IMG/VR virus record: IMGVR_UViG_3300005611_000182
Span: 1-25,107 of that record
Length of the DNA: 25,107 bases
Source: a virus
Lineage: Duplodnaviria; Caudoviricetes
Strand: one strand, 5' to 3'
Part shown: one piece after another, positions 1,265-21,342 of the stretch
Layout: each line of letters begins with the position of its first letter
Position numbering within the stretch: position 1 is the first letter of the stretch
Made by a program: the position numbers and the translations under genes
The notes under the pieces: generated by a model
What the model was told of the DNA's origin: nothing
Database searches by the model: none
The model's input: only the letters and a program-made list of their open reading frames with translations

Positions 1265-1300
1265 GTTTCACCCTGGAACGATGCGGTTTCAGAATAGCAC
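1265..1300. promoter_or_regulatory. Tandem pair of 15-bp palindromic operator-like sites
   Basis: GTTTCA-CCC-TGGAAC (1265-1279) and the weaker GTTTCA-GAA-TAGCAC (1286-1300), 21 bp apart. The same motif recurs at 15174-15210 and 18605-18640. Confidence 0.6.
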
Positions 1301-1319
1301 GGCAATTTCCCCCGGTCCA
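1291..1319 (-). promoter_or_regulatory. Predicted sigma70-type promoter for the distal tail genes
   Basis: Minus strand TGGACC-N17-TATTCT with an extended -10 (TGn), 26 bp upstream of the ATG at 1264. Confidence 0.45.
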
Positions 1320-1363
1320 TGGTGGTTGCCACGTTGCCCGATGCGGCTACAGACAGCGTCAAC

Positions 1364-1384
1364 CGCACGGAGGGACCCATGCGC
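1364..1384 (+). repeat. Left copy of an exact 21-bp inverted repeat (CGCACGGAGGGACCCATGCGC)
   Basis: Identical to the reverse complement of 9490-9510; spans the RBS and start codon of the lipoprotein gene. Confidence 0.85.
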
Positions 1385-1822
1385 ACCACACTCGCTCTCG
1401 CCCTGACTCTCGCCGCCGGCTGTGCCGAGGCCCGCCTCGAAGACTCCGCCGCAGAGGCCGGGGATGCCTCCCCGTCCATGCTGGGCGCGTGGGGCATCCT
1501 CGCCCCGTTCCCGGTCTACTACCAGCTCGACCACTACACGCTCCGCAACCCCGCCTCACCGGCGTGGCCGCTGGTCACCCTCGAGCTGGACCAGGAATCC
1601 ATCCTGCTCGGCGTCGACTACGAGACCACCAGCGGCGGCCGGTCGTGGGCGCTCGTCGACGAGTCCCCCAACGACTGCGAGCCCGCGGACGACGCCATCG
1701 CCTGCACTATCCTGGGCGAGCCTGCGGTCTTCCGCAACCGGAACGGAGGGTGGGAGGTGCCGACACGCTCCATGGCCTGGGGCGACGCGGTCTACGGCGT
1801 CACCTCAATCGCGGAACGGTAG
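1379..1822 (+). CDS. Predicted lipoprotein (147 aa), moron-like, opposite strand
   Basis: GGAGG RBS, then MRTTLALALTLAAGC: basic residue, hydrophobic core and lipobox-like AAGC with Cys15. It fills a gap in minus-strand coding. Start moved from 1319 to 1379. Confidence 0.75.
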   Translation: MRTTLALALTLAAGCAEARLEDSAAEAGDASPSMLGAWGILAPFPVYYQLDHYTLRNPASPAWPLVTLELDQESILLGVDYETTSGGRSWALVDESPNDCEPADDAIACTILGEPAVFRNRNGGWEVPTRSMAWGDAVYGVTSIAER

Positions 1823-3400
1823 CCGCATCAGCTCCAACGTGAGCAGCAGCCCGGTCGTGGTTGGCGTCCACGCCACCACACGACACGGCATCCTCGAGAG
1901 CGAGTAGTCGGAAGCCGTCAGCAGGACGCCCATCCCGGGCTGAATCCTGGCCTTGTCGTAGCGGACGCGCAGAGTCAGCTCAGCAACGGGGACGGCAGCC
2001 CTGACCACCTCGTCGGCCGCGATGAGTCCCGCTGTCGAGTCTCGCCAGACGAAGCGGCTCGAGATCTTGCTCTCGCCCCCCGACGGATTCGCCTCGAAGA
2101 GGCCTGAGCGGTGGGTCGTGGTGTCCCGCGCGGCCGAACCCGTCTGCGAGTAGAGGACCTCCTCGGCAGAGAGAGAGATGGAGCTCCCGTAGCCCTCCGA
2201 GACCGGCGAGTACGCGTACTCGACACGCACCGACGAAGAGAGGTCGGAGCGCGGCTTGACCAGCTTCGGACGGCCGACCTGCCAGCAGTCCTGTCCAACG
2301 GTGAGGTGGTCAATGCACTCGTGCTCGATCGGGGGCCGGCGCAGCAGCGTGAAGAAGTGCCCGCCGGGGCCCGGGGCCAGAGACAGCGGCAGGATGGGTA
2401 GAAGCTCGTCCTCGATGAACTCGGAGGGCTTCCCTTGGTCATCCCAGAATCCGTCTATGCGGTACCGGTCCAGCACATCGGCGGCGGAGATGATGCTGCC
2501 AAGGTCGTACTGGATGGTCGACCGCTCGGCCATCCACCGCAGATGGCTCGTGGCCTTGGTCCAGAGGGTGCCGTCGTAGGGGTCTGGGATGGCGCCGGCC
2601 TCTGGCCATGCCACGAAGATCTTGTCGCCGCCGTCGGTCGGGTCGTCGCCCGGCCCGCCGGCGTTGGTGGTGAAGCTCGTGTAGGTCTGCCCCAGGCCGT
2701 CCGTCAACTGGGCGAGCGTGTCCGAGCCGGTGTGGTTGCCGCCGTCGATGAGGTCAACAGTTGTCGAAGGCACGAAGCCACCGGCCACCATGACCTCATA
2801 CCGAGCCCCGGACGTTCGCAATTGGAACGCTGGCGAGCCTGGAGCGCCGAGGCCAGGGCGGCCGAACGGCATCGGGTACCACCGCCCGTAGCAGCTCGTG
2901 ATGGTCTGCAGAGGGCTCAGTGCAAGCGGCTGCGTCTTGGGACCGACCCGCCTCTCTGGGTCCAGGATGGTGCCGAGGTCATCCTCGGAGAGCTCTGGAG
3001 ACAGCTGCGCCCGAACCGTCTGCCCTGGGAGCGCCAGCTCCTCGAGGTCGAGAAGCCCATCCATGACCACGGTGCGGGTCTCCCAGCTCCCCCCGCTCGG
3101 CAGGATGGCCAGCTCCGCGGTCGCCAGGTGGATGGGCACGCCAGCGAACCAGAGAGCAGCCAGGTCGCCTGGGAAGCGGAGCTGAATCGGAATCGACATC
3201 TCCTCAGCCGCGCCCGGCTCGGTCGCCAGCTCGATGGAGACATCCACCGAGACCAGCCCGGAGAGGTACTGCAACGGGCCGAACTCGGCCGACTCCACCG
3301 AGACCGCGGAGTCGGCGATGCGGTACACCGTGCGGCCGATCTTGAGGCTCAGCAGCCAGCGGTAGCCGGGGGCCAGCGCAGAGCGCCCGAGCAGCATCAT
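1805..3400 (-). CDS. Putative tail-tip hub / Tal-like protein (531 aa)
   Basis: Second gene after the tape measure, ATGA-coupled; WYPMPFG motif; C-terminal RIQPGMGVLLT...CRVV beta segment typical of hub proteins. Confidence 0.6.
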   Translation of the reverse strand: MMLLGRSALAPGYRWLLSLKIGRTVYRIADSAVSVESAEFGPLQYLSGLVSVDVSIELATEPGAAEEMSIPIQLRFPGDLAALWFAGVPIHLATAELAILPSGGSWETRTVVMDGLLDLEELALPGQTVRAQLSPELSEDDLGTILDPERRVGPKTQPLALSPLQTITSCYGRWYPMPFGRPGLGAPGSPAFQLRTSGARYEVMVAGGFVPSTTVDLIDGGNHTGSDTLAQLTDGLGQTYTSFTTNAGGPGDDPTDGGDKIFVAWPEAGAIPDPYDGTLWTKATSHLRWMAERSTIQYDLGSIISAADVLDRYRIDGFWDDQGKPSEFIEDELLPILPLSLAPGPGGHFFTLLRRPPIEHECIDHLTVGQDCWQVGRPKLVKPRSDLSSSVRVEYAYSPVSEGYGSSISLSAEEVLYSQTGSAARDTTTHRSGLFEANPSGGESKISSRFVWRDSTAGLIAADEVVRAAVPVAELTLRVRYDKARIQPGMGVLLTASDYSLSRMPCRVVAWTPTTTGLLLTLELMRLPFRD

Positions 3401-6400
3401 GTCACACCCTCCAGCGTGATGGCTGGCACTCGCTGCAGCTGGCCATCGCCCTCGTCACCGACGATGTTCTCGTAGGTGACGCGGCGGGGTCCCTGGGCAT
3501 AGAGGTACTGGTGCCGATGCAGGAGCATGTAGGAGTCAGGCGGTCCACGGACGATCTCGTGAATGAAGAGCACCGAGCCATCCCGCCCCCCGACGCGGTC
3601 CAGGAAGCCGCGCAACATGGCGACCTGCCCCGCGCGGTTGTTGGTCGGGACCGCCCCAGAGCTGGCGGAAGCAGACCAGAAGGGGGCGTCGTAGGGGTCT
3701 GCGGTCCAGGTCGGGTCCGTGAACGCGATGCGCAGCTGCTCGCCCGTCGGACCAAGCTGGCGAGTGAAGACCGCCCCGTCATCGGCCCGGGTCTCTTCCA
3801 CGGTGTCAGTCGCTCGCCGGCTCCACCCGTAGGACGGGCCGCGCAGAAGCTCGAGGTCGAAGAGCTGCAAGATCCCGCACTGGTGGTAGTTGGGCACGTT
3901 GGCCTGCGAGTCCCAGACCACCTGGAAGCCGGCGTAGTCCTGCCCCAGGAGGTAGCAGACCAAGACCCCGTTCGGGCTCCAGATCTCGCCGTTGGATGCA
4001 CCAGACGTGGCCTCGGTGCCTGTCACACCCTCGAGCGGGAGCACCAGCGGCGGGCCGCCAGTGCCGGACGGGGCCAAGCATCCGCCGCGGTGCTTCCCAA
4101 TCCTGCGCAGGTTGTTGGGTCCAGTCGGGCCCAACTTGAATGTGCCCCCCTCGAGTTCATTGTCGCCTACCCAGATGGTTGAGCCGCTCTTCGTCGGGCG
4201 CACCGTGTTGCCGTAGCGCGACCACGACAGCCCCGTCATGCCCGAGGCCATGTCGATGGAGCCCAGGCTCGCCCACGCGCTCGACTGGTAGCCGTAGAGG
4301 GTGCCCGTCCGGCTGGTCGCGTTGAGGATGAGCAGCGCTACCGCGTCCGAGATGGGACGGCTCTCGTCGTTGCCCAGGATGGTGGGGTGCGCTGCGCACG
4401 CGATGGAGACAGCCGCCGGTGGGCTTGCCGTCGCGCCACGCCACACCGCCCGAGGGCTTCGTGACTCGCCAGCGAACAGGTTTTCGACTCCGAACTCGGC
4501 GACACCGGTGAGGGAGTAGGTGTCGCCCGTGCGCCCCGGGCCTCCGTACCAGTTGAGGTAGATGCCGTCGGTCATCCACATCGGCGCCGAGGAGATGGGC
4601 CGCCCGGCGAAGTCGTCGGGGACGGTCCTCGAGTAGAGAGACGTTCCGCCGATCTCAGCCTCGCGACCGTAGACGAGCCGCCGAATCCAGTAGGCGATCG
4701 TGCTCGTGTCCACCGTGCCGATGGTCAGGACGGCCCCGGTCAGAGAACCGGTGGTGAGCGAGTCCGTGGAGGCGATGGTCTGCCAGTTGCGGTCGTCGCC
4801 GTACTCGTCGAGTTCGCGGGCCTGGGCGACGCACTCCCGCCCGTCAATCCAGAGGCGAAGCTGCAGCTTCGTCGCGCTCCCCAGGGTCATCTGAGAGCCG
4901 ACCTGTGCGCCCGCCTCCTCGTCCCAGAGGGCCAGGGTTGTGGTCCCGGTCACCACGCCCACCCGGATGTGGGCCTGGGTGTCGAAGCCGACCGTTGAGT
5001 TCCGCAGGCCCAGGATGCACTGGTCTGCCGTGAGCCCCGTCGCAGAGAATCCCGAGTCGATCTCGATGTCCATCTCCACCAGCAGGGCGCCACTGCCCGG
5101 CACGCTCACCGACCAGTTGAGCTGGCCGCTCGTGGTGGAGACCTTCTGCCCCTCAGCCTCGATGGCGGTGCTTTGGGTTCCGCTGGTGTTCTTGGTCAGT
5201 CCGCAGGACGACAGCAGGGACAGCGGGAGCCACGAGTAGGTCATCGTTGCCCGGTAGTCCGAGCGGATGGAGGCGCCCTTCGCCGGGAGCTCCGCCGTCG
5301 ACCAGCCGCCCAGGTGCCATAGGAAGAGGTCGGGCTGCGGGATCGTCTGGAACCAGTTGGAGGCGACCACCAGCCGGCCAGAGGTGGCGCACATCGACAC
5401 GCCGTAGGGGAAGACCGTCGAGACGGAGAGCGCGCCCATGGTGAACACGTCGACCGGCGTGTCGCCGAAGACGGCGGAGTCGGGGGTCGCGATGGGCTGC
5501 CAGGTCAGGCCAGCGTCGGGGCTGCGGTACATCGTGAAGGCGTTGTCGTAGGCGCCGCCGGCCGTCGTCTCGGCCTTGAGCATCAGGTAGATCGCCCCGT
5601 CCTCGTCTGTAGTGGCGGCGATCTCGGAAATGCAGATGTTCGACGCGACTCCGCGGACCTCCCAAGCCAACGAGAGTGCGGTCTGGTCGCTCTCGTCGAG
5701 GGGTTGCCCCGCTCCGGAGAGGAGGGCGAAGTAGACCTGCGAGTCGGCACCGCCGAAGTAGCAGATCACGAACTGGTCACCGACAACGGCGACATCACAC
5801 CGGCCCTCGTAGACCGTCGGGCCCGCTTCGGTCTGGTACACCGACTGAAACGTCGCTGCGCCATCCGAGGAGACGCACTGAATCATGTGGTTTCGCGGGT
5901 CGTCCGTGTCGTGGGCGATGACCTCCGCAGCGAGCAGGATGGTGCCCAGACGCGAGACGGCGCCGCGGAGGCGCCCGGTGTCGAATCCGGAGGCCGCCGA
6001 GCCTGGGCTGCCCGAGCAGTCGACGGAGAGGCCGGCGTAGCGCTGGTGCAGCTGCCACGAGCTCGAGCCGGCGGGGCGGCGGTAGGTCGTGAGGTAGGCG
6101 ACAGCCTGGTCCGAGTCGTAGCCCCAGAACACCAAGATCACGTCACCCGACGGCATGACCAAGAGGCACGGGTGCGGCTCCTGGGTGAACGCCGACGACT
6201 GCGAGAGCACCTGCACCGTTGTCTGGGTGCCGTCCATCGCGAGCGCGTTGACCTCCACCGTGTAGGTGGTGCTGACCCCGTTGGAGCGCTCGCCAACGTA
6301 GGCAGTCAAGATCTCGCCGCTGGCTGTCGCGGCAACGTGCACCTGGTCGGTCGACTGGATGCCGGTGGCTGCCCCGACATCAATCCAGAGCGGCGTGTAG

Positions 6401-6711
6401 CCCGTGCACCACGAGGGCGGGTCCCAGCCACGATAATAGGTGTCGGCCTGACTGGCGTACTTCCAGAGGCTGCCCGGCCCGTTGGGGCCAGGGAAGCCCG
6501 AGCGCGAGACCCGCGTCGCGTAGTTGATGACCTCCGACGGGGATCCGCTCGCCGTGAGAGCGAAGCCCCCCTGCTGGTCTGCCGTGACCTCGGGGGGCCG
6601 AGGCGTCTGCTCGGTGATGCTGGACTCAGCCAGCCAGAGGTTTCCGTGCTGCCAGACCTGCGACGGTGAGCCGAGGGCCCGATACCGACTCTGTGAGATG
6701 TCCGTCGCCAT
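3397..6711 (-). CDS. Large tail protein (1104 aa) with Asp-box/BNR beta-propeller region and a putative C-terminal distal-tail (Dit)-like domain
   Basis: Immediately after the tape measure gene; Asp-box motifs SSDGAATF and RSPDAGLTW; C-terminal YGWSRRATDTVEETRADDGAVFTRQLGPTGEQLRIAF resembles Dit-like sequence. Confidence 0.65.
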   Translation of the reverse strand: MATDISQSRYRALGSPSQVWQHGNLWLAESSITEQTPRPPEVTADQQGGFALTASGSPSEVINYATRVSRSGFPGPNGPGSLWKYASQADTYYRGWDPPSWCTGYTPLWIDVGAATGIQSTDQVHVAATASGEILTAYVGERSNGVSTTYTVEVNALAMDGTQTTVQVLSQSSAFTQEPHPCLLVMPSGDVILVFWGYDSDQAVAYLTTYRRPAGSSSWQLHQRYAGLSVDCSGSPGSAASGFDTGRLRGAVSRLGTILLAAEVIAHDTDDPRNHMIQCVSSDGAATFQSVYQTEAGPTVYEGRCDVAVVGDQFVICYFGGADSQVYFALLSGAGQPLDESDQTALSLAWEVRGVASNICISEIAATTDEDGAIYLMLKAETTAGGAYDNAFTMYRSPDAGLTWQPIATPDSAVFGDTPVDVFTMGALSVSTVFPYGVSMCATSGRLVVASNWFQTIPQPDLFLWHLGGWSTAELPAKGASIRSDYRATMTYSWLPLSLLSSCGLTKNTSGTQSTAIEAEGQKVSTTSGQLNWSVSVPGSGALLVEMDIEIDSGFSATGLTADQCILGLRNSTVGFDTQAHIRVGVVTGTTTLALWDEEAGAQVGSQMTLGSATKLQLRLWIDGRECVAQARELDEYGDDRNWQTIASTDSLTTGSLTGAVLTIGTVDTSTIAYWIRRLVYGREAEIGGTSLYSRTVPDDFAGRPISSAPMWMTDGIYLNWYGGPGRTGDTYSLTGVAEFGVENLFAGESRSPRAVWRGATASPPAAVSIACAAHPTILGNDESRPISDAVALLILNATSRTGTLYGYQSSAWASLGSIDMASGMTGLSWSRYGNTVRPTKSGSTIWVGDNELEGGTFKLGPTGPNNLRRIGKHRGGCLAPSGTGGPPLVLPLEGVTGTEATSGASNGEIWSPNGVLVCYLLGQDYAGFQVVWDSQANVPNYHQCGILQLFDLELLRGPSYGWSRRATDTVEETRADDGAVFTRQLGPTGEQLRIAFTDPTWTADPYDAPFWSASASSGAVPTNNRAGQVAMLRGFLDRVGGRDGSVLFIHEIVRGPPDSYMLLHRHQYLYAQGPRRVTYENIVGDEGDGQLQRVPAITLEGVT

Positions 6712-6712
6712 C

Positions 6713-8845
6713 CTACGCTCCCCTCTGTCCGACAGCGCCAGAGCGGCGTGTCTCGCGCAGCATACGCCGGGCGCCCGGCGTCATGGTCAGTTCTACCCGC
6801 GCTGGGCGCGCGGCGCCGCCCTCGAGCCGCTCGCGGATGCCGTCGGCGCCTCCGAGGTCCTGTGTGGTCTGCCGGTCCATGACCGACTCCCCGGGGAGGA
6901 CTCGTGCGAGCTGCTGGTCTGGCGTCTGCGCCATCGGCGTGGAGGGCTGCCCACCTGGAAGGACCGTCCCGCCGATGTCGAAGGTCTGGGCGGTCGGCGG
7001 CTTGGCGACCGCGACCTGGGCCAGCGCGTTGCCGTATCCTGCGGTAGCCGCCGCAAGCGCGAGGCCGCGAGCGAAAGGCACCGGGATGGCCAGCGCCCGC
7101 ATGATGCCGACGCCATACTCGAAGTTGATCTGAGCAATGGACAGCGCCTTGAACGCCGTGAAGAGCCCCTTCGCCGCCTTGTTGCCCGCGTTGGCGGCGG
7201 CCTGGGCTGCCAGCCCGAAGCTCTGGGAGAAGGCACCGGCGGCGGCGCCAGCATTCGAGACGATGAGCTGCTGGCGGGCCTGGGCAGCTGCGCGGGCCTC
7301 TTCGTCGGCGCGGGCGCGGGCCTCGCGGATCTGCTGGATGGCGTCGAGTTCGAGCTCGGTCATCGCCATCGCGGCCTCTTGCTGCACGATCTCATCTTCT
7401 GCGCGTGCATCGGCGATGGCCTGGATCTTGTCCAGTTCCGCTTGTGCGGTCGTCCGGATCTGCTGCTCTTCGGTCATCGCGGCGAAGGCAGCCTCGCGCT
7501 GGCGCTCCGCAAGGCTGGCTCGGATGGCCTCCAGTTCCGAGAGGGCTACCGCCTGCTCGTCGATGGCCTCGGTTTCCGCCTTGATGGCCTTACGACCACC
7601 ACCGCCATCGTCCTCGTCATCTTCGCCACCTGGGAGCACCTGGGTCCCGCCCCGATGCTGCATCAGCGACTGGTTGATGGAGTCCGCCCACTGCGCGCCG
7701 CGTCCGAGGTTTTCTGCGAGCTCGCGGTAGCGCTCAGCCGCATCGAAGCCGCCCAGGTCCTCGGCGACCTCGCGGGCATACTGGCGGATCTCGTCTGCTG
7801 CTCGGCGGCGAGATTCCTCCATCTCCTGGAACCGGGCGGCGACATGCCCCAGGCCGGCGAACTCTGCCATGTCGCCAAGCAAGCCCAGCGCCTCAGCGGC
7901 CAGTTCCCGCATAGAGCCTACAGCCTCTCCGAACGCCAGAGGAATCGCGGCCACCCCCATCTTGGCGCCCTGGATAGCCATGTCGACGAGGTCCATGCCG
8001 TCGACCAGAAGGCCAGCCGTAGAGATCGCCGTCTGCAGCGCCGCGACGAAGCTCGAGCCCACCGTCGACGCGATGGACTGGATGGTGTCGCGGTTGTCTT
8101 CGATGAGGTCGAGCAACCCGCGGGCGGCTGCCTTCGCCGCGTCGAAGGTGCCCTCTGACGCGACCGCCATCTCGAACTTGGTCCACTCGTCCTGCAGGTT
8201 GCTGATCAGCCCGGCCATGGTCTTCGACATGCGCTCGGTGCCCCCCGCGATCTTGCCGTCGGGGTCGGTGAGCGTGTCGATGAGTGCGGCGCGGAACTCC
8301 TCCGCGCCCATTTCGGTGGCCTTCATGCCGGTGCGCATCTCCACCATCGCGAGCACGCCCCGCTCTCGGAGAAGGTCGGCGGAGCCCGCACCAGCCGTCA
8401 GGGCCTTGCCTACGGCCTGGGCGCTCTGCTCCAGGTCCATCCCCAGCGCTCCCGACAGGTCCATGACCGCGGTGCGCAACTCCCCCGCGTTCTGCCCGTA
8501 GCTCTCCAGGACCGCGTCAGCGCTCACCAGCTGCTCGAGGTTGAACGGGGTGGAGCTGGCGACCGAGAAGAGTTCGTCCAGCCTGCGCCGGCCCTCACCA
8601 GCACCGCCCAGCACGGTGGCGAGGCGGGCCTCGAGGGTCTCGAACTTGGCCGCCTGCATGACCGCAGAGGCGCCCAGACCGACCAGCGCGGTGGATGCCG
8701 CCCCGATGGCCGAGGCCGTCGCCAGGAAGGCAGCCTCGGCGGCCTGGGCCACCCTGTCGACCTTGCCCGGGACCCCGCGAAGCGCGCGGTCGAACGGGCC
8801 CGTGTCGAGTCCGAGGGTGAAGCTCAGGGAGTCAGCGATGGCCAT
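6713..8845 (-). CDS. Tail tape measure protein (710 aa)
   Basis: Ala-rich helical protein after the chaperone genes; N-terminal LGLDTGPFDRAL, tape-measure motifs ASSTPFNLEQL and GGTERMSKTMAGLISNLQD, C-terminal FDIGG...LPGESVM. Confidence 0.9.
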   Translation of the reverse strand: MAIADSLSFTLGLDTGPFDRALRGVPGKVDRVAQAAEAAFLATASAIGAASTALVGLGASAVMQAAKFETLEARLATVLGGAGEGRRRLDELFSVASSTPFNLEQLVSADAVLESYGQNAGELRTAVMDLSGALGMDLEQSAQAVGKALTAGAGSADLLRERGVLAMVEMRTGMKATEMGAEEFRAALIDTLTDPDGKIAGGTERMSKTMAGLISNLQDEWTKFEMAVASEGTFDAAKAAARGLLDLIEDNRDTIQSIASTVGSSFVAALQTAISTAGLLVDGMDLVDMAIQGAKMGVAAIPLAFGEAVGSMRELAAEALGLLGDMAEFAGLGHVAARFQEMEESRRRAADEIRQYAREVAEDLGGFDAAERYRELAENLGRGAQWADSINQSLMQHRGGTQVLPGGEDDEDDGGGGRKAIKAETEAIDEQAVALSELEAIRASLAERQREAAFAAMTEEQQIRTTAQAELDKIQAIADARAEDEIVQQEAAMAMTELELDAIQQIREARARADEEARAAAQARQQLIVSNAGAAAGAFSQSFGLAAQAAANAGNKAAKGLFTAFKALSIAQINFEYGVGIMRALAIPVPFARGLALAAATAGYGNALAQVAVAKPPTAQTFDIGGTVLPGGQPSTPMAQTPDQQLARVLPGESVMDRQTTQDLGGADGIRERLEGGAARPARVELTMTPGARRMLRETRRSGAVGQRGA

Positions 8846-8851
8846 GGTGCC

Positions 8852-9495: not shown

Positions 9496-9510
9496 GGGTC
9501 CCTCCGTGCG
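9490..9510 (-). repeat. Right copy of the exact 21-bp inverted repeat
   Basis: Reverse complement reads CGCACGGAGGGACCCATGCGC; spans the RBS and start of the chaperone gene. Confidence 0.85.
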
Positions 9511-9519
9511 CTGGTGAGG

Positions 9520-9572
9520 GCGAGAGCCCCGGGGAGGGGACTCCCAGGGATGGGCAGCCCCGGGGCCCCCGC
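9520..9572 (-). terminator. Strong intergenic hairpin after the tail tube gene (terminator or mRNA-stabilising stem)
   Basis: GCGGGGGCCCCGGGG pairs with CCCCGGGGCUCUCGC: 15 bp with two G-U pairs that work only on the minus-strand RNA; no U-tract. Confidence 0.6.
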
Positions 9573-9577
9573 GAGAA

Positions 9578-10078: not shown

Positions 10079-10087
10079 GTGGCCCTC

Positions 10088-11061: not shown

Positions 11062-11067
11062 GCTCGC

Positions 11068-11565: not shown

Positions 11566-11569
11566 GGTG

Positions 11570-11977
11570 TCAGCCCCCGGCCCGTCGGGCCACGATGTCG
11601 AAGTGGGCGCCCAGCACGTCTCGCTGGACGGTGATCACGTCCCACCGCTCGCCGGTGGTGGTGTCGTAGATGGCTGTGGTCTCGTCGGGTGTGCTGGTGA
11701 GCGACGCCGACGAGACGTGGTAGGAGGTGTCGCCCATCTGGTAGAGGCCGCCAGAGCGCTCCACGTCCTTGGCCGACAACGGCGCGCGGTGGCAGGTGAC
11801 CGTGTCCGAGGAGTTGGTCGCCTGGAAGGCGCCGGTGCGCGCGTCGAAGCTCTGCCCGCTGGCGTACCTGATCTGCACGGAGACACCAGTGTCGGGGTCG
11901 TCGCACATTCCGCGGATGTCTGCGGTCATGTGGACCACCTCCGCGGGAGTCAGGAGGCCGGCGGGAAGCTGGTTCAC
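11570..11977 (-). CDS. Putative head closure (stopper) protein (135 aa)
   Basis: GTGA-coupled; size, position and C-terminal WDVITVQRD...FDIVARR pattern. Confidence 0.6.
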   Translation of the reverse strand: MNQLPAGLLTPAEVVHMTADIRGMCDDPDTGVSVQIRYASGQSFDARTGAFQATNSSDTVTCHRAPLSAKDVERSGGLYQMGDTSYHVSSASLTSTPDETTAIYDTTTGERWDVITVQRDVLGAHFDIVARRAGG

Positions 11978-12366
11978 GCGCTCACGTCGATGTAGAGCAC
12001 GAGCAGCGTGTCGCCGGTGGTGTCGGTGCCGCCCGTGTTGTTGATCGTGTTGGCTCCCGTGATGCTGAACTCGCTGGTGCGGCTGGTGGGCACGCCGCTG
12101 GCGAACTCGATGACCGAGACCAGGACATCATCAGCCGCAACACCGGTGACCGTGTGGTCTCCAGCTGCGCCGCCCGCGATGGTGGCGTCCTTGATCTGGC
12201 CGCCGCGCACGGTGGCGCCACCGATGACCGCAGAGGCGGCCGTGACCGAGGTCGTGGCCACGAGGGCGTTGGCCGTCGCGGTGCCACTGTGGGTCGCGTT
12301 GCCGTCGTCCTCGAGCAGGTGGGTCGTGGTGCCTGCGGCGTTCTGCAGCTCGAACTGGTCGGACAT
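11974..12366 (-). CDS. Hypothetical virion protein, possibly a small neck/head fibre (130 aa)
   Basis: Thr/Ala/Gly-rich ORF with GGGAG RBS between adaptor and stopper genes. Confidence 0.6.
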   Translation of the reverse strand: MSDQFELQNAAGTTTHLLEDDGNATHSGTATANALVATTSVTAASAVIGGATVRGGQIKDATIAGGAAGDHTVTGVAADDVLVSVIEFASGVPTSRTSEFSITGANTINNTGGTDTTGDTLLVLYIDVSA

Positions 12367-12382
12367 GAGGGGCTCCCGAGGG

Positions 12383-12724
12383 TCAGGACGGAGTCACAAA
12401 CCCGGAATCGAAGGGCTGTAGGGCGGGGAAGGTGATGCCGATGCTCGGCATGTTGGCGCCCAGGTCGGCCGCCAGCCGGTCGAGGGCGGCGAGCGCGGCG
12501 CTGTCGTCGTAGGACATGCCAGGCACGGTGAACTTGCGGGCGCGGCGAGCGCGGTCCATGCGCAGGACGTTGATGCCCTCGCGCGCCCCGCCATCGACGC
12601 TACCGCCCTTGGTCAGGAAGTAGTCGATCTCGGCGTCCTCGAAGGCGTAGGCCTCCGAGTTGGTGTCGGCGAGGCGAAGGCGAAGCTGGCCGCGGTCGGT
12701 CGCGAGATCGTAGGTGAACGCCAT
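12383..12724 (-). CDS. Putative head-tail adaptor (113 aa)
   Basis: MAFTYDLATDRGQLRLRLADT...FEDAEIDYFL pattern typical of adaptors; TGATG-coupled; second gene after the capsid gene. Confidence 0.7.
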   Translation of the reverse strand: MAFTYDLATDRGQLRLRLADTNSEAYAFEDAEIDYFLTKGGSVDGGAREGINVLRMDRARRARKFTVPGMSYDDSAALAALDRLAADLGANMPSIGITFPALQPFDSGFVTPS

Positions 12725-12999
12725 CAGCTGGCCTTGCCTCGCCCGCGAGTGGGCGAGGCCTTGCCGCTCAGCCCCTCAAGGGCCGCGAGGATGGAGTCCT
12801 GCGTCGCCTCGATGGAAGCCAAGCGGGCCTTGATGTGCTCCACGCTCTCGGTGAGGTCGATCTCGACCCGCAACGAGGCCTTGACCGCTTCCTGGAGCGC
12901 CTCGTCGAGGAGCTGCGCAGGGCTGCCGAGGTCGCGGAGTTGCTGGATGTCGGGCAGGAGCCCCTCGCGGAGCTCCTCGGCGGTCGCTGGGTTGAGCAT
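12724..12999 (-). CDS. Hypothetical protein (91 aa), coiled coil with basic tail
   Basis: GGAGG RBS, heptad pattern, C-terminal KASPTRGRGKAS; directly after the capsid gene. Confidence 0.65.
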   Translation of the reverse strand: MLNPATAEELREGLLPDIQQLRDLGSPAQLLDEALQEAVKASLRVEIDLTESVEHIKARLASIEATQDSILAALEGLSGKASPTRGRGKAS

Positions 13000-13021
13000 G
13001 GGTCCCTCCAGGCTCGGGTGC

Positions 13022-13047
13022 TGGTGGGCGAGATGTCCCGCCCACCA
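13022..13047 (-). terminator. Hairpin after the major capsid gene
   Basis: UGGUGGGCGGG-ACAU-CUCGCCCACCA, 11-bp stem with one G-U pair, just after a TGATGA double stop; no U-tract. Confidence 0.65.
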
Positions 13048-13053
13048 TGGTCA

Positions 13054-14043
13054 TCAGGTGGCAGCGCCGTTGCCGTTGACCCATGCGCGCCAGTCCGCGA
13101 CGGCAAAGCCGACGGCGATCTCGGAGCTGACCATGAACGCGCGGCGGTCCTCGTCGTACCAGGAGCGGAAGTCGGGCTCGCCCTCGTCGTAGTAGATGAC
13201 GCCGCGAGACCCAGCCTGCGGCCCACAGCTCCCCAGGAACCACGGGGTCGAGGAGGTGAGGTAGCGCCAGACGATGGGCTCGACGGCGTTGAAGTAGGGG
13301 TTGGCGTCGTTCTGGGCGGTGCCGGGCTGCTGCGCAGACATGAGGATCTTCATAGCGGTCGCCCGGAGGGCGGGCGGCACCAGGAGGTGCGTCGCCGGCA
13401 TGTCGATCTTGTTGTCCTTCTCGTCCTTGGCGTTGGTCGAGGTGAGCAGGGTCATAGCGGTGTCGAAGGCGTTGGCACTCAGCGCGGTCGAGTCCACCAC
13501 GTTGCCGTAGGTGGTCCCGGCCTTGTTGACGTGCGCGGCCCCGAAGAAGGACTCGCCGTCGTAGATGACCTTCGGGTAGGGGTCGGCCTCGCCCGGGTAG
13601 CTCTGGTCGAAGTAGGTCGCGTCGCCGGCGTTGAGGCGGCCCTTGTTGAACAGTCCAGCGGCGAGCTCTTCCTTCATGGTGGCGAAGGAGCGGCCCCAGT
13701 TGGCGGTGTTCGTGCGGACGTAGTTGCCGATTCCGACCGCGTCCATGGACTCGGCGACCTCGACTGGGATGGAAAGCTTCTTCGCGTAGCGCTTGATCGC
13801 CATGCGGACCGTGAAGCCCTCGCCGTCGGTGACCTCGGCGATCTGCTGGCCGGGGCGCCGGCGGACCGGGGCGCCGCTGCCCTGGAGCGTGGTCTCCTTG
13901 TGGCCGTAGGGCGCCGCAGTGGCGATCTCGACGCGCGTCATGATCCGGGGGTGGACCATGTCGATGGAGCGGTAGTTGTCGAGCAGCACGTCGATTGCGG
14001 CGCGGCTGCTGATCTGCTGGAACTCAGAGGGAGAAAGGGGCAT
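13054..14043 (-). CDS. Major capsid protein, Mu gpT-like HK97 fold (329 aa)
   Basis: Size and position, HLLVPPAL motif, C-terminal GFAVADWRAWVNGNG, GAGGAG RBS, downstream hairpin. Confidence 0.85.
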   Translation of the reverse strand: MPLSPSEFQQISSRAAIDVLLDNYRSIDMVHPRIMTRVEIATAAPYGHKETTLQGSGAPVRRRPGQQIAEVTDGEGFTVRMAIKRYAKKLSIPVEVAESMDAVGIGNYVRTNTANWGRSFATMKEELAAGLFNKGRLNAGDATYFDQSYPGEADPYPKVIYDGESFFGAAHVNKAGTTYGNVVDSTALSANAFDTAMTLLTSTNAKDEKDNKIDMPATHLLVPPALRATAMKILMSAQQPGTAQNDANPYFNAVEPIVWRYLTSSTPWFLGSCGPQAGSRGVIYYDEGEPDFRSWYDEDRRAFMVSSEIAVGFAVADWRAWVNGNGAAT

Positions 14044-14055
14044 CGGTCAGACTCC

Positions 14056-14478
14056 TCAGACCACGCCGGCGTAGCAGGCCGACTTGACCCGGCTCACCAG
14101 CAGCTTGTTGTTGTCGACATCGACGCCGACACAGAGAAGACAGTCGTCGGTGGAGGCGTCGATGTTGACCGACTGAGCGCCGCCCACATCCATCGTGGTG
14201 CCCACGAGAGCCTGGGAGACGGTGCCGGCGTCGGGATCGAAGCGGTAGACGGTCTCGCAGCTCACATCCACGAGGATGGTCACGTCGCCGTCTGCGCTGG
14301 GGCTGGTGACGCTGTCCTGCGCGATGCCGACGGGGAGCTCGCCGGCGCTGGCCTGCTGGATGTAGCCAGCCGTGGCGAGCGAGACGAAGTCGCCCTTCGA
14401 GATGTCGGCGCTGGAGCTGTCGACGGGCATCGGCAGCAGGATCGGCGTCCCGTAGACGAGACAGTTGTCGGTGGACAT
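14056..14478 (-). CDS. Putative head decoration/cement protein (140 aa)
   Basis: ISKGDFVSL...PVGIA motif; lies between scaffold and capsid genes. Confidence 0.65.
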   Translation of the reverse strand: MSTDNCLVYGTPILLPMPVDSSSADISKGDFVSLATAGYIQQASAGELPVGIAQDSVTSPSADGDVTILVDVSCETVYRFDPDAGTVSQALVGTTMDVGGAQSVNIDASTDDCLLCVGVDVDNNKLLVSRVKSACYAGVV

Positions 14479-14489
14479 GGGCTCTCCGG

Positions 14490-15119
14490 TCAGGATGCCT
14501 GGCGGCGCTGCCGCTGCATCAGGGTCTTTTCGATGTCGGCCTGGGAGAGGCCGGGGTACTTGGGCGCAAGGCGGACGGCCTCAGCCTTGACTTCAGGGGG
14601 CACGTTGAGGTCGCTGGTCGGGCGCGTTCCGCCGCGTGTTCCAGCGGGGAACGTCGGCGACTCGGCCAGCGTCTTCTTGATGGTCGCGATCTGCGCGGCC
14701 TTGGCCTCAGCGTCGAGACCAGCCGGCACAAGGGCGCGGTAGGCCTCGGGGAGGGCTTCGATGGCGGCAGCGTTGGCGGCTTCGAGGCGCTCCAGCCGAG
14801 CGGTCTCGCGGGCCTCGAGCTGCTCGAGCTTGGCGGCCAGCGCGTCGCGCTCGGCCTTGGTGCCCTGGTAGAGCTCGTCGAGCTTGCCGGCCTCGCGGGC
14901 GGCCTTCTCTTCGGCTTCCTTGGCGGCCTGGGCCCTCTCGGCCTCGATGGCCGCCAGGCGCTGCTCCAGCTCGGCGGCGCGCTTCTGCTCTGCGGCCAGC
15001 TTGGAGGTCAGGTCATCGGTGGCCGGCTTCGGCTCAACCGCAGCGGCCGGAGCGGGCGCGGGGGCCGGCTCCGCAGCGGGGGCTGGCGCTGGCGCTGGTG
15101 CAGGATTCTGCGTCGACAT
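14490..15119 (-). CDS. Capsid scaffolding protein (209 aa)
   Basis: AAGGAG RBS, N-terminal PAPAPA low complexity, Ala/Glu/Lys coiled coil, upstream of the capsid gene. Confidence 0.75.
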   Translation of the reverse strand: MSTQNPAPAPAPAPAAEPAPAPAPAAAVEPKPATDDLTSKLAAEQKRAAELEQRLAAIEAERAQAAKEAEEKAAREAGKLDELYQGTKAERDALAAKLEQLEARETARLERLEAANAAAIEALPEAYRALVPAGLDAEAKAAQIATIKKTLAESPTFPAGTRGGTRPTSDLNVPPEVKAEAVRLAPKYPGLSQADIEKTLMQRQRRQAS

Positions 15120-15158
15120 TGGGGCACTCCTTGCCCGTCCCCGGGCTGTGCTGTGGAA

Positions 15159-15187
15159 AGCCTACCGCGAGTCGTTCCATAGTGCAA
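15159..15187 (-). promoter_or_regulatory. Predicted sigma70-type promoter for scaffold-capsid genes
   Basis: TTGCAC-N17-TAGGCT in the 79-bp gap upstream of the scaffold gene. Confidence 0.55.
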
Positions 15188-15210
15188 CGGTCATCGGTTC
15201 ACTCTGGAAC
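15174..15210. promoter_or_regulatory. Tandem pair of 15-bp palindromic operator-like sites
   Basis: GTTCCA-TAG-TGCAAC (15174-15188, over the -35 and spacer) and GGTTCA-CTC-TGGAAC (15196-15210), 22 bp apart. Confidence 0.65.
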
Positions 15211-16320
15211 GTCGGGCGCGACTCGGTCCGGGTAGAGGCGGCGCAGGTCTCCGAGGGACAGTGCCCGCCCACGGTCGGAGAGGTCGCGGAGGGCCAGCTT
15301 GCGGCCGCGCCACAGCCGAGCCCGCGCCTTCCCGAGCACGGCTTCCTGGACTGCCTGTGGTTGCCGGCGAAGCCAGGCGTCGTAGCTCATGTTCTCGGCG
15401 CGGCTCCCGTCCATGCGGCGGCGCGTGGCATCGTCTGGCGAGTCGATGCCCAACTCTCGCCAGCTCTTGGTCACTGGGGCCAGGAAGCACCTGCAGCGCG
15501 GGTGGATGGGTGGCGCAATGAACGGCGGCGCCTTGGGGTCTTCGCTGTCCATCGGCCGGCCGTTGGGCCCCAACGGGTAGACCACCATGTGACGCGGGGC
15601 GCAGACCGGGCAGGTCCGGCTGTCGAGCGTCGCGAGGTACTGGACGGCCTGAATGATGTCGCTGTTGGCCTGGTAGGTGACCAGCGCCGAATCCGTGCTG
15701 ACCCGCTGGATTTCGGTCCGCGCGATGGTGGTGAAGCGCCCCTTGTAGGTCTCCGTGAGGCCAGACACGTCCTCGAGCAGCTGGGCCGCGTTCGGCATGG
15801 AGGAGCCGGAGATCACAGCGTCGGCGACGGCAGCGCGCACCGCCTGCTCCGCTTCGACGATGTCCCGGGCGAGGCGGTCAGTCCAGCGCAGCCCACCGAT
15901 AGGGCTCGTGATGGACACCAGCGCGTCGGAGGCTGGCACCGAGGCCACCGCGATGCCCTCCGCGCCCAAGGCGGCGGGGAGGCGGGCCTCGATGCGGCTC
16001 GCCGTGATGCGCAGCTCCGTCTCCCGCACCTCCGACAGCCGCTCGGTGAGCACCTCCGCGATCGTGCGCTCTGCGGCCTGCAAGGTGGCGCGGAAGGCAA
16101 GCTGCGCCTGCTGGTACCGGAAGCGCTCGGCGGGGGTCAGCGAGGTGCGGCCCGACCGCTGGAGCCGGCGGAGGCGCTCGATCTCCGCCTTGAGCGGGGC
16201 GACGGTCTCCTCCCACAGATCGACCACGTCCCGTGCGGTGCCCGCTTCGTAGCGGAGGAGCCACAGCCGGTGACGGGTGAAGTCCTCAGCCAGCTGCTGG
16301 TTGATGCTGTCTTCATTCAT
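15199..16320 (-). CDS. Minor head protein, Phage Mu F / SPP1 gp7 family (373 aa)
   Basis: Motifs TIARTE, YLATLDSRTCPVC and PPIHPRCRC. Confidence 0.92.
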   Translation of the reverse strand: MNEDSINQQLAEDFTRHRLWLLRYEAGTARDVVDLWEETVAPLKAEIERLRRLQRSGRTSLTPAERFRYQQAQLAFRATLQAAERTIAEVLTERLSEVRETELRITASRIEARLPAALGAEGIAVASVPASDALVSITSPIGGLRWTDRLARDIVEAEQAVRAAVADAVISGSSMPNAAQLLEDVSGLTETYKGRFTTIARTEIQRVSTDSALVTYQANSDIIQAVQYLATLDSRTCPVCAPRHMVVYPLGPNGRPMDSEDPKAPPFIAPPIHPRCRCFLAPVTKSWRELGIDSPDDATRRRMDGSRAENMSYDAWLRRQPQAVQEAVLGKARARLWRGRKLALRDLSDRGRALSLGDLRRLYPDRVAPDVPE

Positions 16321-16862
16321 GCGCGCACATGGCGGAGTAGCGCCGCCCCGGTCGCGGTCTTCTCGAAGCGGTCAGCCCAGGATGGGTCTACCTTGCGGAC
16401 GGCGCGCAGGGCTCCGAGCACGATGTCGTCGCCCCCCCACCCGTGCCAGGCCTGCCAGCCCTTGCCCTCGTCGGCCCAGGTCGCGCCCTGCTTGTCCTTG
16501 AGATGGCGCGCAAGGTACCGCAGGGCCCGCTTCGTGGTGCGGATGGAGAGCGGGCGGCCGTTCTTCAGGTCCCGTGCGCGAGCGAGACCCACCGGGGTCA
16601 TGCCGCGCTGGCTCGGCGGCTTTGAGTCGCGCACCTCCAGCGCCATGCCCCCGTTTCGCTGGGCTGCCTCGCCGGGGGTCCAGGTCGCGTCGTCCATGGC
16701 GGCCGTAGACTCGCGGGCCTTGGCTGCTCGACCCTGGGCGGCGGCGCGAGACCGGGCACGGCGGCGGCCAGCGTCATCCCCTGGCGTGTAGCGGTAGCGC
16801 TTGCCCCGCTCGCCCCACCGGTAGAAGGGGCCCTCGTCGTCTCGGCCGCGGGTGACGGGCAT
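16317..16862 (-). CDS. Basic hypothetical head-module protein (181 aa)
   Basis: Start reassigned to the ATG at 16862 (MPVTRGRDDEGPFYRWG...), 2 bp after the portal stop; ATGA-coupled to MuF; motifs GMTPVGLARARDL and WQAWHGWGGD. Confidence 0.75.
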   Translation of the reverse strand: MPVTRGRDDEGPFYRWGERGKRYRYTPGDDAGRRRARSRAAAQGRAAKARESTAAMDDATWTPGEAAQRNGGMALEVRDSKPPSQRGMTPVGLARARDLKNGRPLSIRTTKRALRYLARHLKDKQGATWADEGKGWQAWHGWGGDDIVLGALRAVRKVDPSWADRFEKTATGAALLRHVRA

Positions 16863-16864
16863 GG

Positions 16865-18595
16865 TCAGTCTCCGAAGCCGAGTGCGGCGCGGAGGTCTTC
16901 GGTGTCGTCCTCTTCGGCGCGCTCCTCCTCCCCGTCGGCCAGCACCGCGGTCGCGTCGCTGAGGATGGCGAGGGCGCGGCCGACGATGTCCGCGCGCTCC
17001 ACCTCGCTTGCTTCCTCGAGGCCTGCGAGCAGCTCGGAGACCTCGCGGAGGTCGTCGCCCACCGTCTCTGCCGTCTCCAGCATCGCCGTCAGGTTGTCGA
17101 CCATCTGCTGAGCCTCTGGCGGCGCGGTCGGGTCGACTCCGCCGAAGGTGTTCTGCGCCATGCCCGCGCGGTCCTGCGCCTCGGTGGCGTAGGTCTCTGG
17201 GTCTTTCGCTTTGTCGATCACGCCCAGGGTCTGCAGGTGCCTGACGTAGTCTCCGGGGGTGATCATCCCAGCCTGACGGACGATCTCCAGCGCTTCGAGC
17301 TCGGCCTTCTTGTCGGATGGCAGCACCGGGCCCGCGACGAAGCGGTAGACCGGCCGGTCGGGCTCGAGGTGAACCCCGCGGTCCATCGCGACCGCCATGT
17401 CTACTGCGCGGGCGAGCTCCGGGAGGATGTTGCCGCGGACCTTGAGGATGCTGGCCACGTAGGCGGCCGACAGGGTCCGGAGTGCCTCCCCGGACGCGCT
17501 GGCTCCGCCAGAGAAGACCGCGAAGACCGGGAACGTCTGCCGCACCCGGTCGAGGCACTTGTCGACGGCGAGCAACAACTCCTTGATGGGGTTTCCGCTC
17601 GGCTCGAGGTAGCCCAGCTCTGCGTTGGCCGGGAGGCTGTGCATCCATGTCCCGAAGCGGCCCACGTTGCGGTTGGTGGTGGTCGCCCCGGGTGCGCCGC
17701 CCAGGGACGCGCCCTTGAGGTAGGGCATCGGGGCGCCGTAGCGCGTCGCGATGGCGTGGACCTGGGCGACCAGCGAGTCAGCCGCCGCGAGAACCGACAG
17801 GATGCCGAAGCCAGCCCCGACGCCGTGCCCCGGCTGGTCGGTCTCGCCCCACACGAGGTTCACGAACGGGACGTGGCCAAGGTTGTGGGCGCCGCTCTCG
17901 CTGGGCACCGGGTCCCCGTTCATGCTGACCGTGATGGTCTCGGGCGTCAGGATCCGGGTGTAGATGTTGAGCGTCGCCCCCTCGCCACCAGACAGCGAGG
18001 CGATGGCATCTCCGCCCTGGTCCAGTTCTTCCGCCGTGAAATACTGGTTGGTGATGGCGACGCGCCGGACCTCGGTGTCGGTCGCGTCGTCGAAGACCAC
18101 CGCGTAGATGCGCGGGTCTCGGAAGACCATCTTCGTGCGGTAGGGGGCGGAGCTCTCCATGCGAACCAGCTCGATGCCGCACCGCCCGGGGCCCGCGCAC
18201 GCCCATCCGATTCGGCTCAGCTGGTTCGCGAAGTTGCTGCGGCGCAGCACCGCCTCCCCTTCCTGGATGGTCCGTTGCTCGAGGCCTGGGTCGCGCTCGG
18301 TGTCCGCTTGGTCCAGGAGGTCGCCCTGCAACTCCAGCGACAGCCCGCCACCAAAGAGGGATTCCGCGCCGCGTTCCACAATGAACACGTAGTCTCGGAA
18401 GACACGATGGGTGCGCGCGATCTCGTTGCCCCGCAGGTCCATCGCCGAGAACAGGTGGTAGGCCTCTGCCTCTGCGGCGCTGTATGGCTGCATCTGGAAG
18501 GCATCGATCCTTCGCTGGTAGGCGTCTCGCCACTCCGCCTCGGTCGTTGGGTACCGGAGCGGGCTGGCGGAAGTGTCAGGCCAAGTCGTGGTCAT
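16865..18595 (-). CDS. Portal protein (576 aa)
   Basis: Directly after TerL, GGAG RBS; HNLGHVPFV and ASGEALR motifs as in SPP1 gp6-like portals. Confidence 0.82.
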   Translation of the reverse strand: MTTTWPDTSASPLRYPTTEAEWRDAYQRRIDAFQMQPYSAAEAEAYHLFSAMDLRGNEIARTHRVFRDYVFIVERGAESLFGGGLSLELQGDLLDQADTERDPGLEQRTIQEGEAVLRRSNFANQLSRIGWACAGPGRCGIELVRMESSAPYRTKMVFRDPRIYAVVFDDATDTEVRRVAITNQYFTAEELDQGGDAIASLSGGEGATLNIYTRILTPETITVSMNGDPVPSESGAHNLGHVPFVNLVWGETDQPGHGVGAGFGILSVLAAADSLVAQVHAIATRYGAPMPYLKGASLGGAPGATTTNRNVGRFGTWMHSLPANAELGYLEPSGNPIKELLLAVDKCLDRVRQTFPVFAVFSGGASASGEALRTLSAAYVASILKVRGNILPELARAVDMAVAMDRGVHLEPDRPVYRFVAGPVLPSDKKAELEALEIVRQAGMITPGDYVRHLQTLGVIDKAKDPETYATEAQDRAGMAQNTFGGVDPTAPPEAQQMVDNLTAMLETAETVGDDLREVSELLAGLEEASEVERADIVGRALAILSDATAVLADGEEERAEEDDTEDLRAALGFGD

Positions 18596-18604
18596 GTCGG
18601 CTCC

Positions 18605-18640
18605 GTTTCATTCTGGAACTCCAGCGTATCACCATGGAAC
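18605..18640. promoter_or_regulatory. Tandem pair of 15-bp palindromic operator-like sites over a possible extended -10 promoter
   Basis: GTTTCA-TTC-TGGAAC (18605-18619) and GTATCA-CCA-TGGAAC (18626-18640), 21 bp apart; minus-strand TGnTACGCT at 18623-18631. Confidence 0.65.
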
Positions 18641-21313: not shown

Positions 21314-21342
21314 ATTGTAGCCGGACGGTGGGGCGATGTCGA
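21314..21342 (-). promoter_or_regulatory. Predicted sigma70-type promoter of the packaging operon
   Basis: TCGACA-N17-TACAAT (5/6 and 5/6 to consensus); the spacer contains the iteron core GCCCCACC. Confidence 0.65.

What the first reader, a model, noticed from the sequence alone, without database searches (positions are those of the whole stretch)
1265..18640. Paired 15-bp palindromic operators over three internal morphogenesis promoters: a candidate undescribed late-gene regulon
Seen: three separate intergenic gaps (before the portal, the scaffold/capsid block and the distal tail genes) each hold two copies of a GTTYCA-N3-TGRAAC-like palindrome: 18605 GTTTCAttcTGGAAC and 18626 GTATCAccaTGGAAC; 15174 GTTCCAtagTGCAAC and 15196 GGTTCActcTGGAAC; 1265 GTTTCAcccTGGAAC and 1286 GTTTCAgaaTAGCAC. 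Spacing is 21, 22 and 21 bp, about two helical turns, and one site in each pair overlaps a predicted -10 or -35 element. Known: cooperative HTH dimers such as lambda CI use paired operators with similar spacing. Inference: this phage splits its structural genes into several sigma70 promoters, each gated by one DNA-binding protein, more likely a repressor given the overlap. No obvious dedicated regulator lies in the window; the two-HTH TerS is one candidate.
Basis: partly seen in the sequence, partly recalled or inferred. Interest (0 to 1): 0.85.

Follow-up and report, generated by a model that had tools for sequence, protein, structure and literature searches.

The report
Paired operators on phage assembly promoters
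An uncultured marine phage, likely of a myxobacterium, carries the same 15-letter mirror-image DNA word in pairs at three gene junctions in its particle-building region, where the pairs overlap predicted promoters and are likely docking sites for a repressor, probably the phage's own, that would hold these genes off until needed.

Summary
An unbiased search for paired palindromes ranks this motif first, and 0 of 300 codon shuffles give even one pair. Each pair overlaps a sigma70-type promoter candidate. Four of the five departures from consensus create -10, extended -10 or -35 bases. The pairs sit at a different offset in each promoter, which favours a repressor over an activator. No transcript or binding data exist, and a strict scanner does not call these promoters. 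The phage probably infects Myxococcota, and about 17 kb of its ~42-kb genome is missing, so the regulator probably lies outside the window. TerS is a weak candidate. Distant relatives keep a promoter-like element before the scaffold gene but not this motif. The same half-site marks sigma54 enhancers in Myxococcota genomes, so a host enhancer-binding protein acting as repressor is a real minority reading (about 0.2). IclR, parS, iteron and RNA-hairpin readings fail. Verdict: a new member of a known kind (dispersed paired phage operators).

The parts
1265..1279 (.). Operator copy, exact consensus; predicted +6..+20 of the leftmost promoter; holds the likely ribosome-binding site and abuts the ATG at 1264
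1286..1300 (.). Operator copy, 2 mismatches; both create the TG and the -12 T of an extended -10 (TG-C-TATTCT); predicted -16..-2
1291..1319 (-). Predicted sigma70-type promoter TGGACC-17-TATTCT with extended -10; joint best score on the minus strand
   Evidence: prediction only, not called by the strict scanner
15174..15188 (.). Operator copy, 1 mismatch that creates the G of the -35 TTGCAC; predicted -36..-22
15196..15210 (.). Operator copy, 1 mismatch; contains the last codons and stop of the MuF-like gene; predicted -58..-44
15159..15187 (-). Predicted sigma70-type promoter TTGCAC-17-TAGGCT before the scaffold/decoration/capsid block
   Evidence: promoter-like elements at the same place in relatives
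18605..18619 (.). Operator copy, exact consensus; predicted -3..+12; 9 bp before the portal ATG
18626..18640 (.). Operator copy, 1 mismatch that creates the -12 T of TG-A-TACGCT; contains the TerL stop; predicted -24..-10
18623..18631 (-). Predicted extended -10 promoter (TG-A-TACGCT), no clear -35, before the portal gene
   Evidence: prediction only
14638..14652 (.). Unpaired 1-mismatch copy inside the scaffold gene, about 160 bp before the next gene; possible auxiliary site or chance
824..1264 (-). 146-aa gene behind the leftmost pair; no family match; tail-related by position only
1379..1822 (+). Lipoprotein-like gene in the opposite direction; it interrupts the structural region and makes the 1265-1378 gap divergent
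   Evidence: lipobox read from the sequence, no Pfam hit
14490..15119 (-). Putative scaffold gene, first gene behind the middle pair; followed by 14056-14478 and the major capsid gene 13054-14043
   Evidence: capsid PF25209; scaffold by position and composition
16865..18595 (-). Portal gene, first gene behind the right-hand pair
   Evidence: phrog_145
18629..20251 (-). Terminase large subunit
20248..21054 (-).
21314..21342 (-). Best-matching sigma70 promoter (TCGACA-17-TACAAT) ahead of the terS operon; carries no operator of this family

Best explanation
The three pairs are likely operators for one dimeric helix-turn-helix repressor, probably encoded in the unseen ~17 kb of the phage genome, that would block three predicted host-type (sigma70/sigmaA) promoters inside the particle-building region. 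Shown: six near-identical palindromes in three pairs two helical turns apart, at 3 of the 8 non-coding gaps, each pair overlapping a promoter-like element. Inferred: two dimers bind side by side on one face of the helix, probably cooperatively. One dimer covers the -10 or -35 element; the other covers the start site and ribosome-binding region (portal and leftmost promoters) or the upstream flank (scaffold promoter). This would keep portal, capsid and the distal genes silent until the repressor is removed or diluted by genome replication. The internal promoters would then raise expression of high-copy head proteins and restart transcription past the oppositely oriented lipoprotein gene. Whether this serves lysogeny or lytic timing cannot be told.
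For: Non-random pairs. All three touch gaps of 20 bp or more in a window with only 1,151 non-coding bp (chance about 1e-4). Only 23-24 TAnnnT hexamers exist on the whole coding strand and one lies at each pair (not fully independent of the motif). Four of five consensus departures create promoter-consensus bases. The offsets differ (-16/+20, -58/-22, -24/+12), which suits steric repression and not a fixed-position activator. Six distant relatives have promoter-like words before the scaffold gene, with different palindromes: significant in 2 of 6, borderline in 1, plus a paired TGACA-N3-TGTCG over the -35/-10 in a fourth. That pattern is expected of lineage-specific repressor-operator sets. At most one pair per genome in 18 of 401 Myxococcota genomes, so no global host regulon in those searched. 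About 17 kb of the genome is unseen.
Against: No binder identified; no transcript, start-site or binding data. The strict sigma70 scanner misses all three promoters, and the scaffold promoter scores only mid-rank. No close relative could be read across the sites: the one informative piece shows none of 12 listed differences in the portal pair, but 7 of its 19 differences are unlisted and the test is weak (about 0.08 by my arithmetic). None of 14 related loci has a pair of this motif, and 3 of 6 relatives show no significant single palindrome. The half-site also serves as a host sigma54 enhancer word. A complete relative gave no integrase or CI-type hit among 33 non-structural ORFs scanned.
Confidence: 0.55

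Rival explanations
1. The pairs are bound by a host sigma54 enhancer-binding protein (NtrC family, Fis-type HTH). In its resting state it would occlude the phage's sigma70-type promoters and tie virion production to a host signal.
For: 6 of 18 host paired sites have a sigma54 promoter 30-260 bp downstream, against 8 of 428 background windows (about three independent gene contexts). A site plus sigma54 promoter occurs in 17 of 401 Myxococcota genomes against 1 control match. Enhancer-binding protein genes lie beside 2 of 15 such loci examined. M. xanthus PexR represses a sigmaA promoter through tandem palindromes (PMC12754779, abstract and passages). Host factors control phage promoters in the CtrA, LexA and Spo0A cases (PMC9437464, passages).
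Against: The match is to the half-site and not to the spacing: 4- or 5-bp spacers score as well (25 of 401 against 4 control matches). No sigma54 promoter lies within 300 bp of any phage pair. Phage spacers are 44% A+T against 65% in host sites (small samples). The same half-site recurs in parS, IclR sites and phage iterons, so convergence is easy. The exact host is unknown, and relatives carry other palindromes.
Confidence: 0.2
2. A phage late activator binds the pairs and recruits RNA polymerase, as Ogr or Alt do.
For: At the scaffold promoter the pair spans -58 to -22, an activator-compatible position. Late activators are common (PMC3152322, passages).
Against: At the other two promoters the pairs cover the -10, the start site and the leader; the offsets differ by more than 30 bp between promoters.
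Confidence: 0.08
3. The two-HTH TerS moonlights as the repressor.
For: It is the only clear HTH protein in the late region. terS holds a cluster of GTTGCA/TGCAAC words that resemble one variant half-site.
Against: No N3 operator lies in terS or at its operon promoter. A relative with an 89%-identical capsid protein appears to carry a TerS only 31% identical (both list a 41,383-bp longest contig; same contig inferred), which shows fast turnover but not what its operators are. Ring-forming TerS is not known to read 15-bp dyads (recalled).
Confidence: 0.07
4. The sites bind a replication-initiator or ParB-type protein, coupling late genes to replication or partition.
For: The same word at a 20-22 bp period forms iterons in phage initiator genes (6 of 6 ORFs scanned are initiators). 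The half-site equals host parS. The 75-aa ORF at 24542-24769 has weak ParB-HTH structural look-alikes (TM about 0.5, under the bar).
Against: This phage's likely origin uses GGCCCCACC repeats behind a DUF927 gene. parS has a 2-bp CG centre, not N3. The 75-aa ORF scores no better than 374 of 1000 shuffles on a ParB-HTH profile and has no Pfam or PDB support.
Confidence: 0.06
5. The repeats act as RNA (translational operator or hairpin), or are non-functional.
For: The motif is polar (five of six copies read the same way on the coding strand), two pairs touch start codons, and two contain stop codons.
Against: Folding energies are within about 2 SD of shuffles, and one region is weaker than its shuffles. 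No Rfam match. The scaffold pair lies upstream of its predicted transcript. Chance is excluded.
Confidence: 0.04

Closest known systems
Cluster K mycobacteriophage ESAS (PMC3203893, passages) and Microbacterium cluster EG/EF repeats (PMC7302621, passages)
   Same: Pairs of imperfect 17-bp inverted repeats with a short spacer (4-13 bp) near gene starts, several per genome, sequence differing between lineages, binder unknown.
   Different: ESAS lie before non-structural genes and are tied to a conserved 13-bp SAS; here the pairs sit on structural-gene promoters of an unrelated phage and have no SAS.
Lambdoid CI/Cro paired operators; dispersed repressor operators of P1 C1, phiC31 and L5 (recalled, no call)
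   Same: Adjacent dyads about two turns apart over sigma70 promoters; one repressor silencing scattered promoters.
   Different: No repressor gene or immunity region is seen; the sites are inside the morphogenesis region and absent from the two strong promoters ahead of the replication and terS operons.
Sigma54 enhancer-binding proteins acting as repressors, e.g. M. xanthus PexR (PMC12754779, abstract and passages)
   Same: Tandem palindromes overlapping a sigmaA promoter in Myxococcota; the phage half-site is found in host sigma54 enhancers.
   Different: The PexR site is CACCG-n6-CGGTG and has a sigma54 promoter downstream; the phage pairs have none.
Lytic deferment by host CtrA (PMC9437464, passages)
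   Same: Would be the model if the binder is a host protein: host operators at phage promoters.
   Different: CtrA is a global regulator with a known site; here no global host regulon was found in 401 genomes searched.
Late activators RinA, Ogr, Alt (PMC3152322, passages)
   Same: Sequence-specific control of morphogenesis promoters.
   Different: They activate from upstream at a fixed position, RinA and Alt at one promoter before terS; here the terS promoter lacks the site and the pairs cover core promoter elements.

Membership tests
Phage repressor operators (CI/C1-type) | Repeated dyad sites beyond chance, paired on one helical face | tested here: met
Phage repressor operators (CI/C1-type) | Overlap with sigma70 core promoter elements | tested here: inconclusive
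   Relaxed scan finds -10 or -35 words at all three pairs; the strict scanner finds none; no start-site data
Phage repressor operators (CI/C1-type) | Cognate repressor gene in the genome, with the same sites at its own promoter | not testable with these tools
   About 17 kb unseen; the 42,446-bp and 29,298-bp contigs could not be read beyond the window
Cluster K ESAS | Pair of imperfect inverted repeats, 4-13 bp apart | tested here: met
   6-7 bp between 15-mers
Cluster K ESAS | Linked 13-bp SAS and location before non-structural genes | tested here: not met
   Sites precede portal, scaffold and distal genes; no shared SAS in the sequences (definition from PMC3203893)
Sigma54 enhancer (UAS) of an NtrC-family activator | Sigma54 -24/-12 promoter downstream | tested here: not met
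   None within 300 bp of any pair
Sigma54 enhancer (UAS) of an NtrC-family activator | Site sequence used as enhancer in the host phylum | tested here: inconclusive
   Half-site yes; N3 spacing not specific; exact host unknown
parS / ParB | GTTYCA-CG-TGRAAC with a 2-bp centre | tested here: not met
   Host parS has the CG centre; all six phage sites have a variable 3-bp centre
IclR-family operators | GTT-11-AAC (17 bp) geometry and an IclR gene | tested here: not met
   Motif is GTT-9-AAC (PMC8222616 section 13); IclR_C in 0 of 5 host genomes that carry pairs
O-like initiator iterons | Array of three or more inside or beside the initiator gene, with an AT-rich unwinding region | tested here: not met
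   Three dispersed pairs in the structural region; the origin-like element uses another repeat
Late activator sites (Ogr/Alt/RinA type) | Fixed position upstream of -35 | tested here: not met
   Three different offsets, two over the -10 and start site (rests on predicted promoters)

The most novel reading that the evidence does not exclude
A myxobacterial phage has copied a host sigma54 enhancer word onto three sigma70-type virion promoters, so that a host enhancer-binding protein, normally an activator, represses portal, capsid and tail genes until a host signal changes: lytic deferment through an NtrC-family protein.
Probability: 0.2. Interest if true: 0.75.

Novelty: new member of a known kind. 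Interest (0 to 1): 0.42.

Why it matters
Late genes of model tailed phages are mostly switched on by an activator or antiterminator at one promoter. This phage appears instead to use several internal host-type promoters under negative control, in a poorly studied group of likely Myxococcota phages. It gives three short, testable promoter fragments. If the binder is the phage's own repressor, it adds one more case to a known class. If it is a host enhancer-binding protein, it would extend host control of phage timing (CtrA, LexA, Spo0A) to the sigma54 activator family acting as repressor.

Tried and rejected
Close relatives. Single-protein and alignment searches of viral, metagenome and genome collections gave one further assembly of the same virus (L150) and relatives at 24-44% identity. 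The 89% relative has no readable DNA. A search of the viral collection with a 21-base stretch of the window found nothing. No RNA holder was listed, which says nothing about expression. Contigs laid on 14400-18800 (four of seven listed runs, leftmost pair not included) were informative for one pair only.

Background. 0 of 80 TerL-related loci hold a pair; among loci L083-L158 only L150 does.

Rejected readings: IclR; parS; iteron; ParB-like ORF 24542-24769; RNA hairpin; sigma54 promoter at the sites. ECF promoter and LexA box were judged by eye against recalled consensus; host pairs do not precede SOS genes. No Fis-type HTH_8 domain in 5 of 5 phage records, four of them incomplete. Exact single sites in Myxococcota (158 of 401 genomes, 263 sites, against 75 genomes and 160 sites for the control by my hand count) are too close to chance to show a regulon. 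In the most enriched genome (41 against 8) more than half of the 39 loci read fell in coding frames.

No structure model was obtained for TerS or the 75-aa ORF, so their folds stay open.

Literature. Ten searches found no description of this motif in a phage; the only literal hit was a yeast paper. The library lacks most subscription papers, and motif logos in figures or supplements (PMC6615313, PMC4641369) were not seen and may hold this enhancer word.
Full report
Setting. The window is the whole record G000, 25,107 bp at 69% G+C: a fragment of a tailed phage with nearly all genes on the minus strand. From the right it holds a zinc-finger and DUF927 replication module, an origin-like repeat region, a two-HTH TerS, TerL, portal, a MuF-like gene, putative scaffold, major capsid, head-tail, tail and tape-measure genes, then a plus-strand lipoprotein-like gene and two unassigned genes. 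Identical capsid and 75-aa proteins occur on a 42,446-bp contig, so about 17 kb is unseen; CheckV puts completeness at 37%. A second assembly, L150, differs at 1 of 20,987 bases and extends about 4 kb further left, but could not be read there. Of six genome hits to the capsid alignment, the one sharing gene order is a contig in a Myxococcota MAG and the others are delta-type bacteria; the host is therefore likely Myxococcota (inference). The best-matching run is an aquaculture metagenome.

Observation. All six sites are as reported. The motif survives tests that do not depend on how it was chosen. Held-out pairs rank 1-2, 1-2 and 1-4. A de novo search ranks it first at log10 p -16.9, against -10.7 at best in 62 other phage loci. 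0 of 300 codon-preserving shuffles hold one pair, and 0 of 80 TerL-related loci have a pair. The word is polar, GTTCCA-N3-TGAAAC on the coding strand in five of six copies, and 9 of 12 outer flanks extend the dyad by C...G. Three unpaired weaker copies lie in genes (2814, 14638, 18373); 0.9 are expected by chance. Two upstream copies hold the stop codons of TerL and the MuF-like gene, which both end V-P-x-stop; seven related proteins end otherwise, so the constraint is on the DNA.

Promoters. The coding strand has only 23-24 TAnnnT hexamers and one lies at each pair: TGGACC-17-TG-C-TATTCT, TTGCAC-17-TAGGCT and TG-A-TACGCT. Four of the five departures from the operator consensus supply the extended -10 G, two -12 Ts and the G of the -35, as expected where an operator and a promoter share bases. 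Relative to predicted starts the pairs span -16..+20, -58..-22 and -24..+12. That fits occlusion of polymerase and not a fixed-position activator. Against this: the strict scanner calls only the promoter at 21342-21314, the scaffold promoter scores mid-rank, and no RNA data exist. The two good promoters ahead of the terS and replication operons lack the operator.

Relatives. None of 14 related loci carries a pair of this motif. Six with a readable scaffold upstream region show promoter-like words there: TAnnnT in four, TTGACA-17-CAAGGT in one, TTGCAC in two. Their palindromes differ from one another; 2 of 6 are significant against shuffles, 1 is borderline and 3 are not, in a test that also misses the window's own sites. 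The complete relative G001 has a pair TGACA-N3-TGTCG, 19 bp apart, over its -35 and -10, the only two such words in 36 kb. So an internal scaffold promoter looks like a family trait and its operator looks lineage-specific; the support is partial. One near relative shows none of 12 listed differences (of 19 in 276 bases) inside the portal pair, which is weak support.

Who binds. TerS is the only clear HTH protein in the late region, but no operator lies in its gene or promoter, and it appears to turn over faster than the capsid. The 75-aa ORF's ParB resemblance failed a profile test. IclR, parS and iteron readings fail on spacing or context. In 401 Myxococcota genomes, pairs occur in 18, never more than one per genome, against 5 genomes for the control; there is no global regulon in those searched. 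However, 6 of those 18 lie upstream of a sigma54 promoter (background 8 of 428). A direct search for site plus sigma54 promoter hits 17 of 401 genomes against 1 control match, before flagellin, motA, sulfur-handling and small-RNA-like loci, twice beside an enhancer-binding protein gene. The control with 4-5 bp spacers is as rich (25 of 401 against 4), so the half-site, not the N3 geometry, is the host enhancer word. That makes a host NtrC-family repressor plausible, with PexR as precedent (PMC12754779), but not specific: the half-site also recurs in parS, IclR sites and phage iterons. I give a phage-coded repressor outside the window 0.55, a host enhancer-binding protein 0.2, an activator 0.08, TerS 0.07, an initiator or ParB 0.06, and RNA or no function 0.04.

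Comparison with what is known. It works like dispersed, paired repressor operators (lambda-type geometry and P1/phiC31/L5 dispersal, recalled). It most resembles cluster K ESAS in anatomy, but fails ESAS membership (no SAS, structural genes). Papers seen: PMC3203893, PMC7302621, PMC6615313, PMC4641369, PMC9437464 and PMC3152322 as passages; PMC8222616 as passages and section 13; PMC12754779 as abstract and passages. Ten searches found no report of this motif in a phage. Earlier notes of this scan describe several similar operator sets on late promoters in other phages (unchecked), which suggests the arrangement recurs.

Verdict. Observation confirmed; interpretation partly supported; new member of a known kind; interest 0.42, rising to about 0.75 if the binder proves to be a host enhancer-binding protein (probability about 0.2).

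Noticed in passing
window 21410-21696: Origin-like element right behind the DUF927 gene: inverted arrays of GGCCCCACC repeats flanking an A+T-richer core; resembles SaPI/Cch-type origins (recalled).
   Followed up: partly
window 21314-21342 and 24885-24913 (minus strand): Both strong promoters (terS operon, replication operon) hold a GCCCC(C)AC word like the origin repeat in their spacer, so the replication protein may regulate them.
   Followed up: no
window 20798-20856: Cluster of three GTTGCAAC palindromes and further half-words inside terS, between its two HTH domains; possible pac or TerS-binding region.
   Followed up: no
L190, L191, L192 (Myxococcota genomes G275, G320, G185), about 1486-1990: Conserved unannotated unit upstream of khpA-ECF sigma-anti-sigma: three enhancer palindromes, a sigma54 promoter 105-148 bp away, then a C-rich stretch (CCCCCTCCTCCTCAG) and a terminator-like hairpin; likely an sRNA, no Rfam match.
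   Followed up: partly
L082, L249, L251, L253, L254, L257, L262, L265, L267, L268: Many unrelated phage replication-initiator genes share the iteron GTTYCA-N3-TGRAAC at a 20-22 bp period.
   Followed up: partly
L152, L161, L167, L168, upstream of the scaffold gene: A small gene in the opposite direction appears to sit just before the scaffold promoter in several relatives, making it a divergent promoter region (read by eye).
   Followed up: no
proteins P0001 and P0021: An 89%-identical capsid protein and a 31%-identical two-HTH TerS both list a 41,383-bp longest contig, suggesting a terminase swap between close phages.
   Followed up: no
window 9496-9577, 13000-13053, 1360-1378: Three gene starts share the same ribosome-binding word GGAGGGACCC-ATG, two preceded by G+C-rich hairpin-like sequence.
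   Followed up: no
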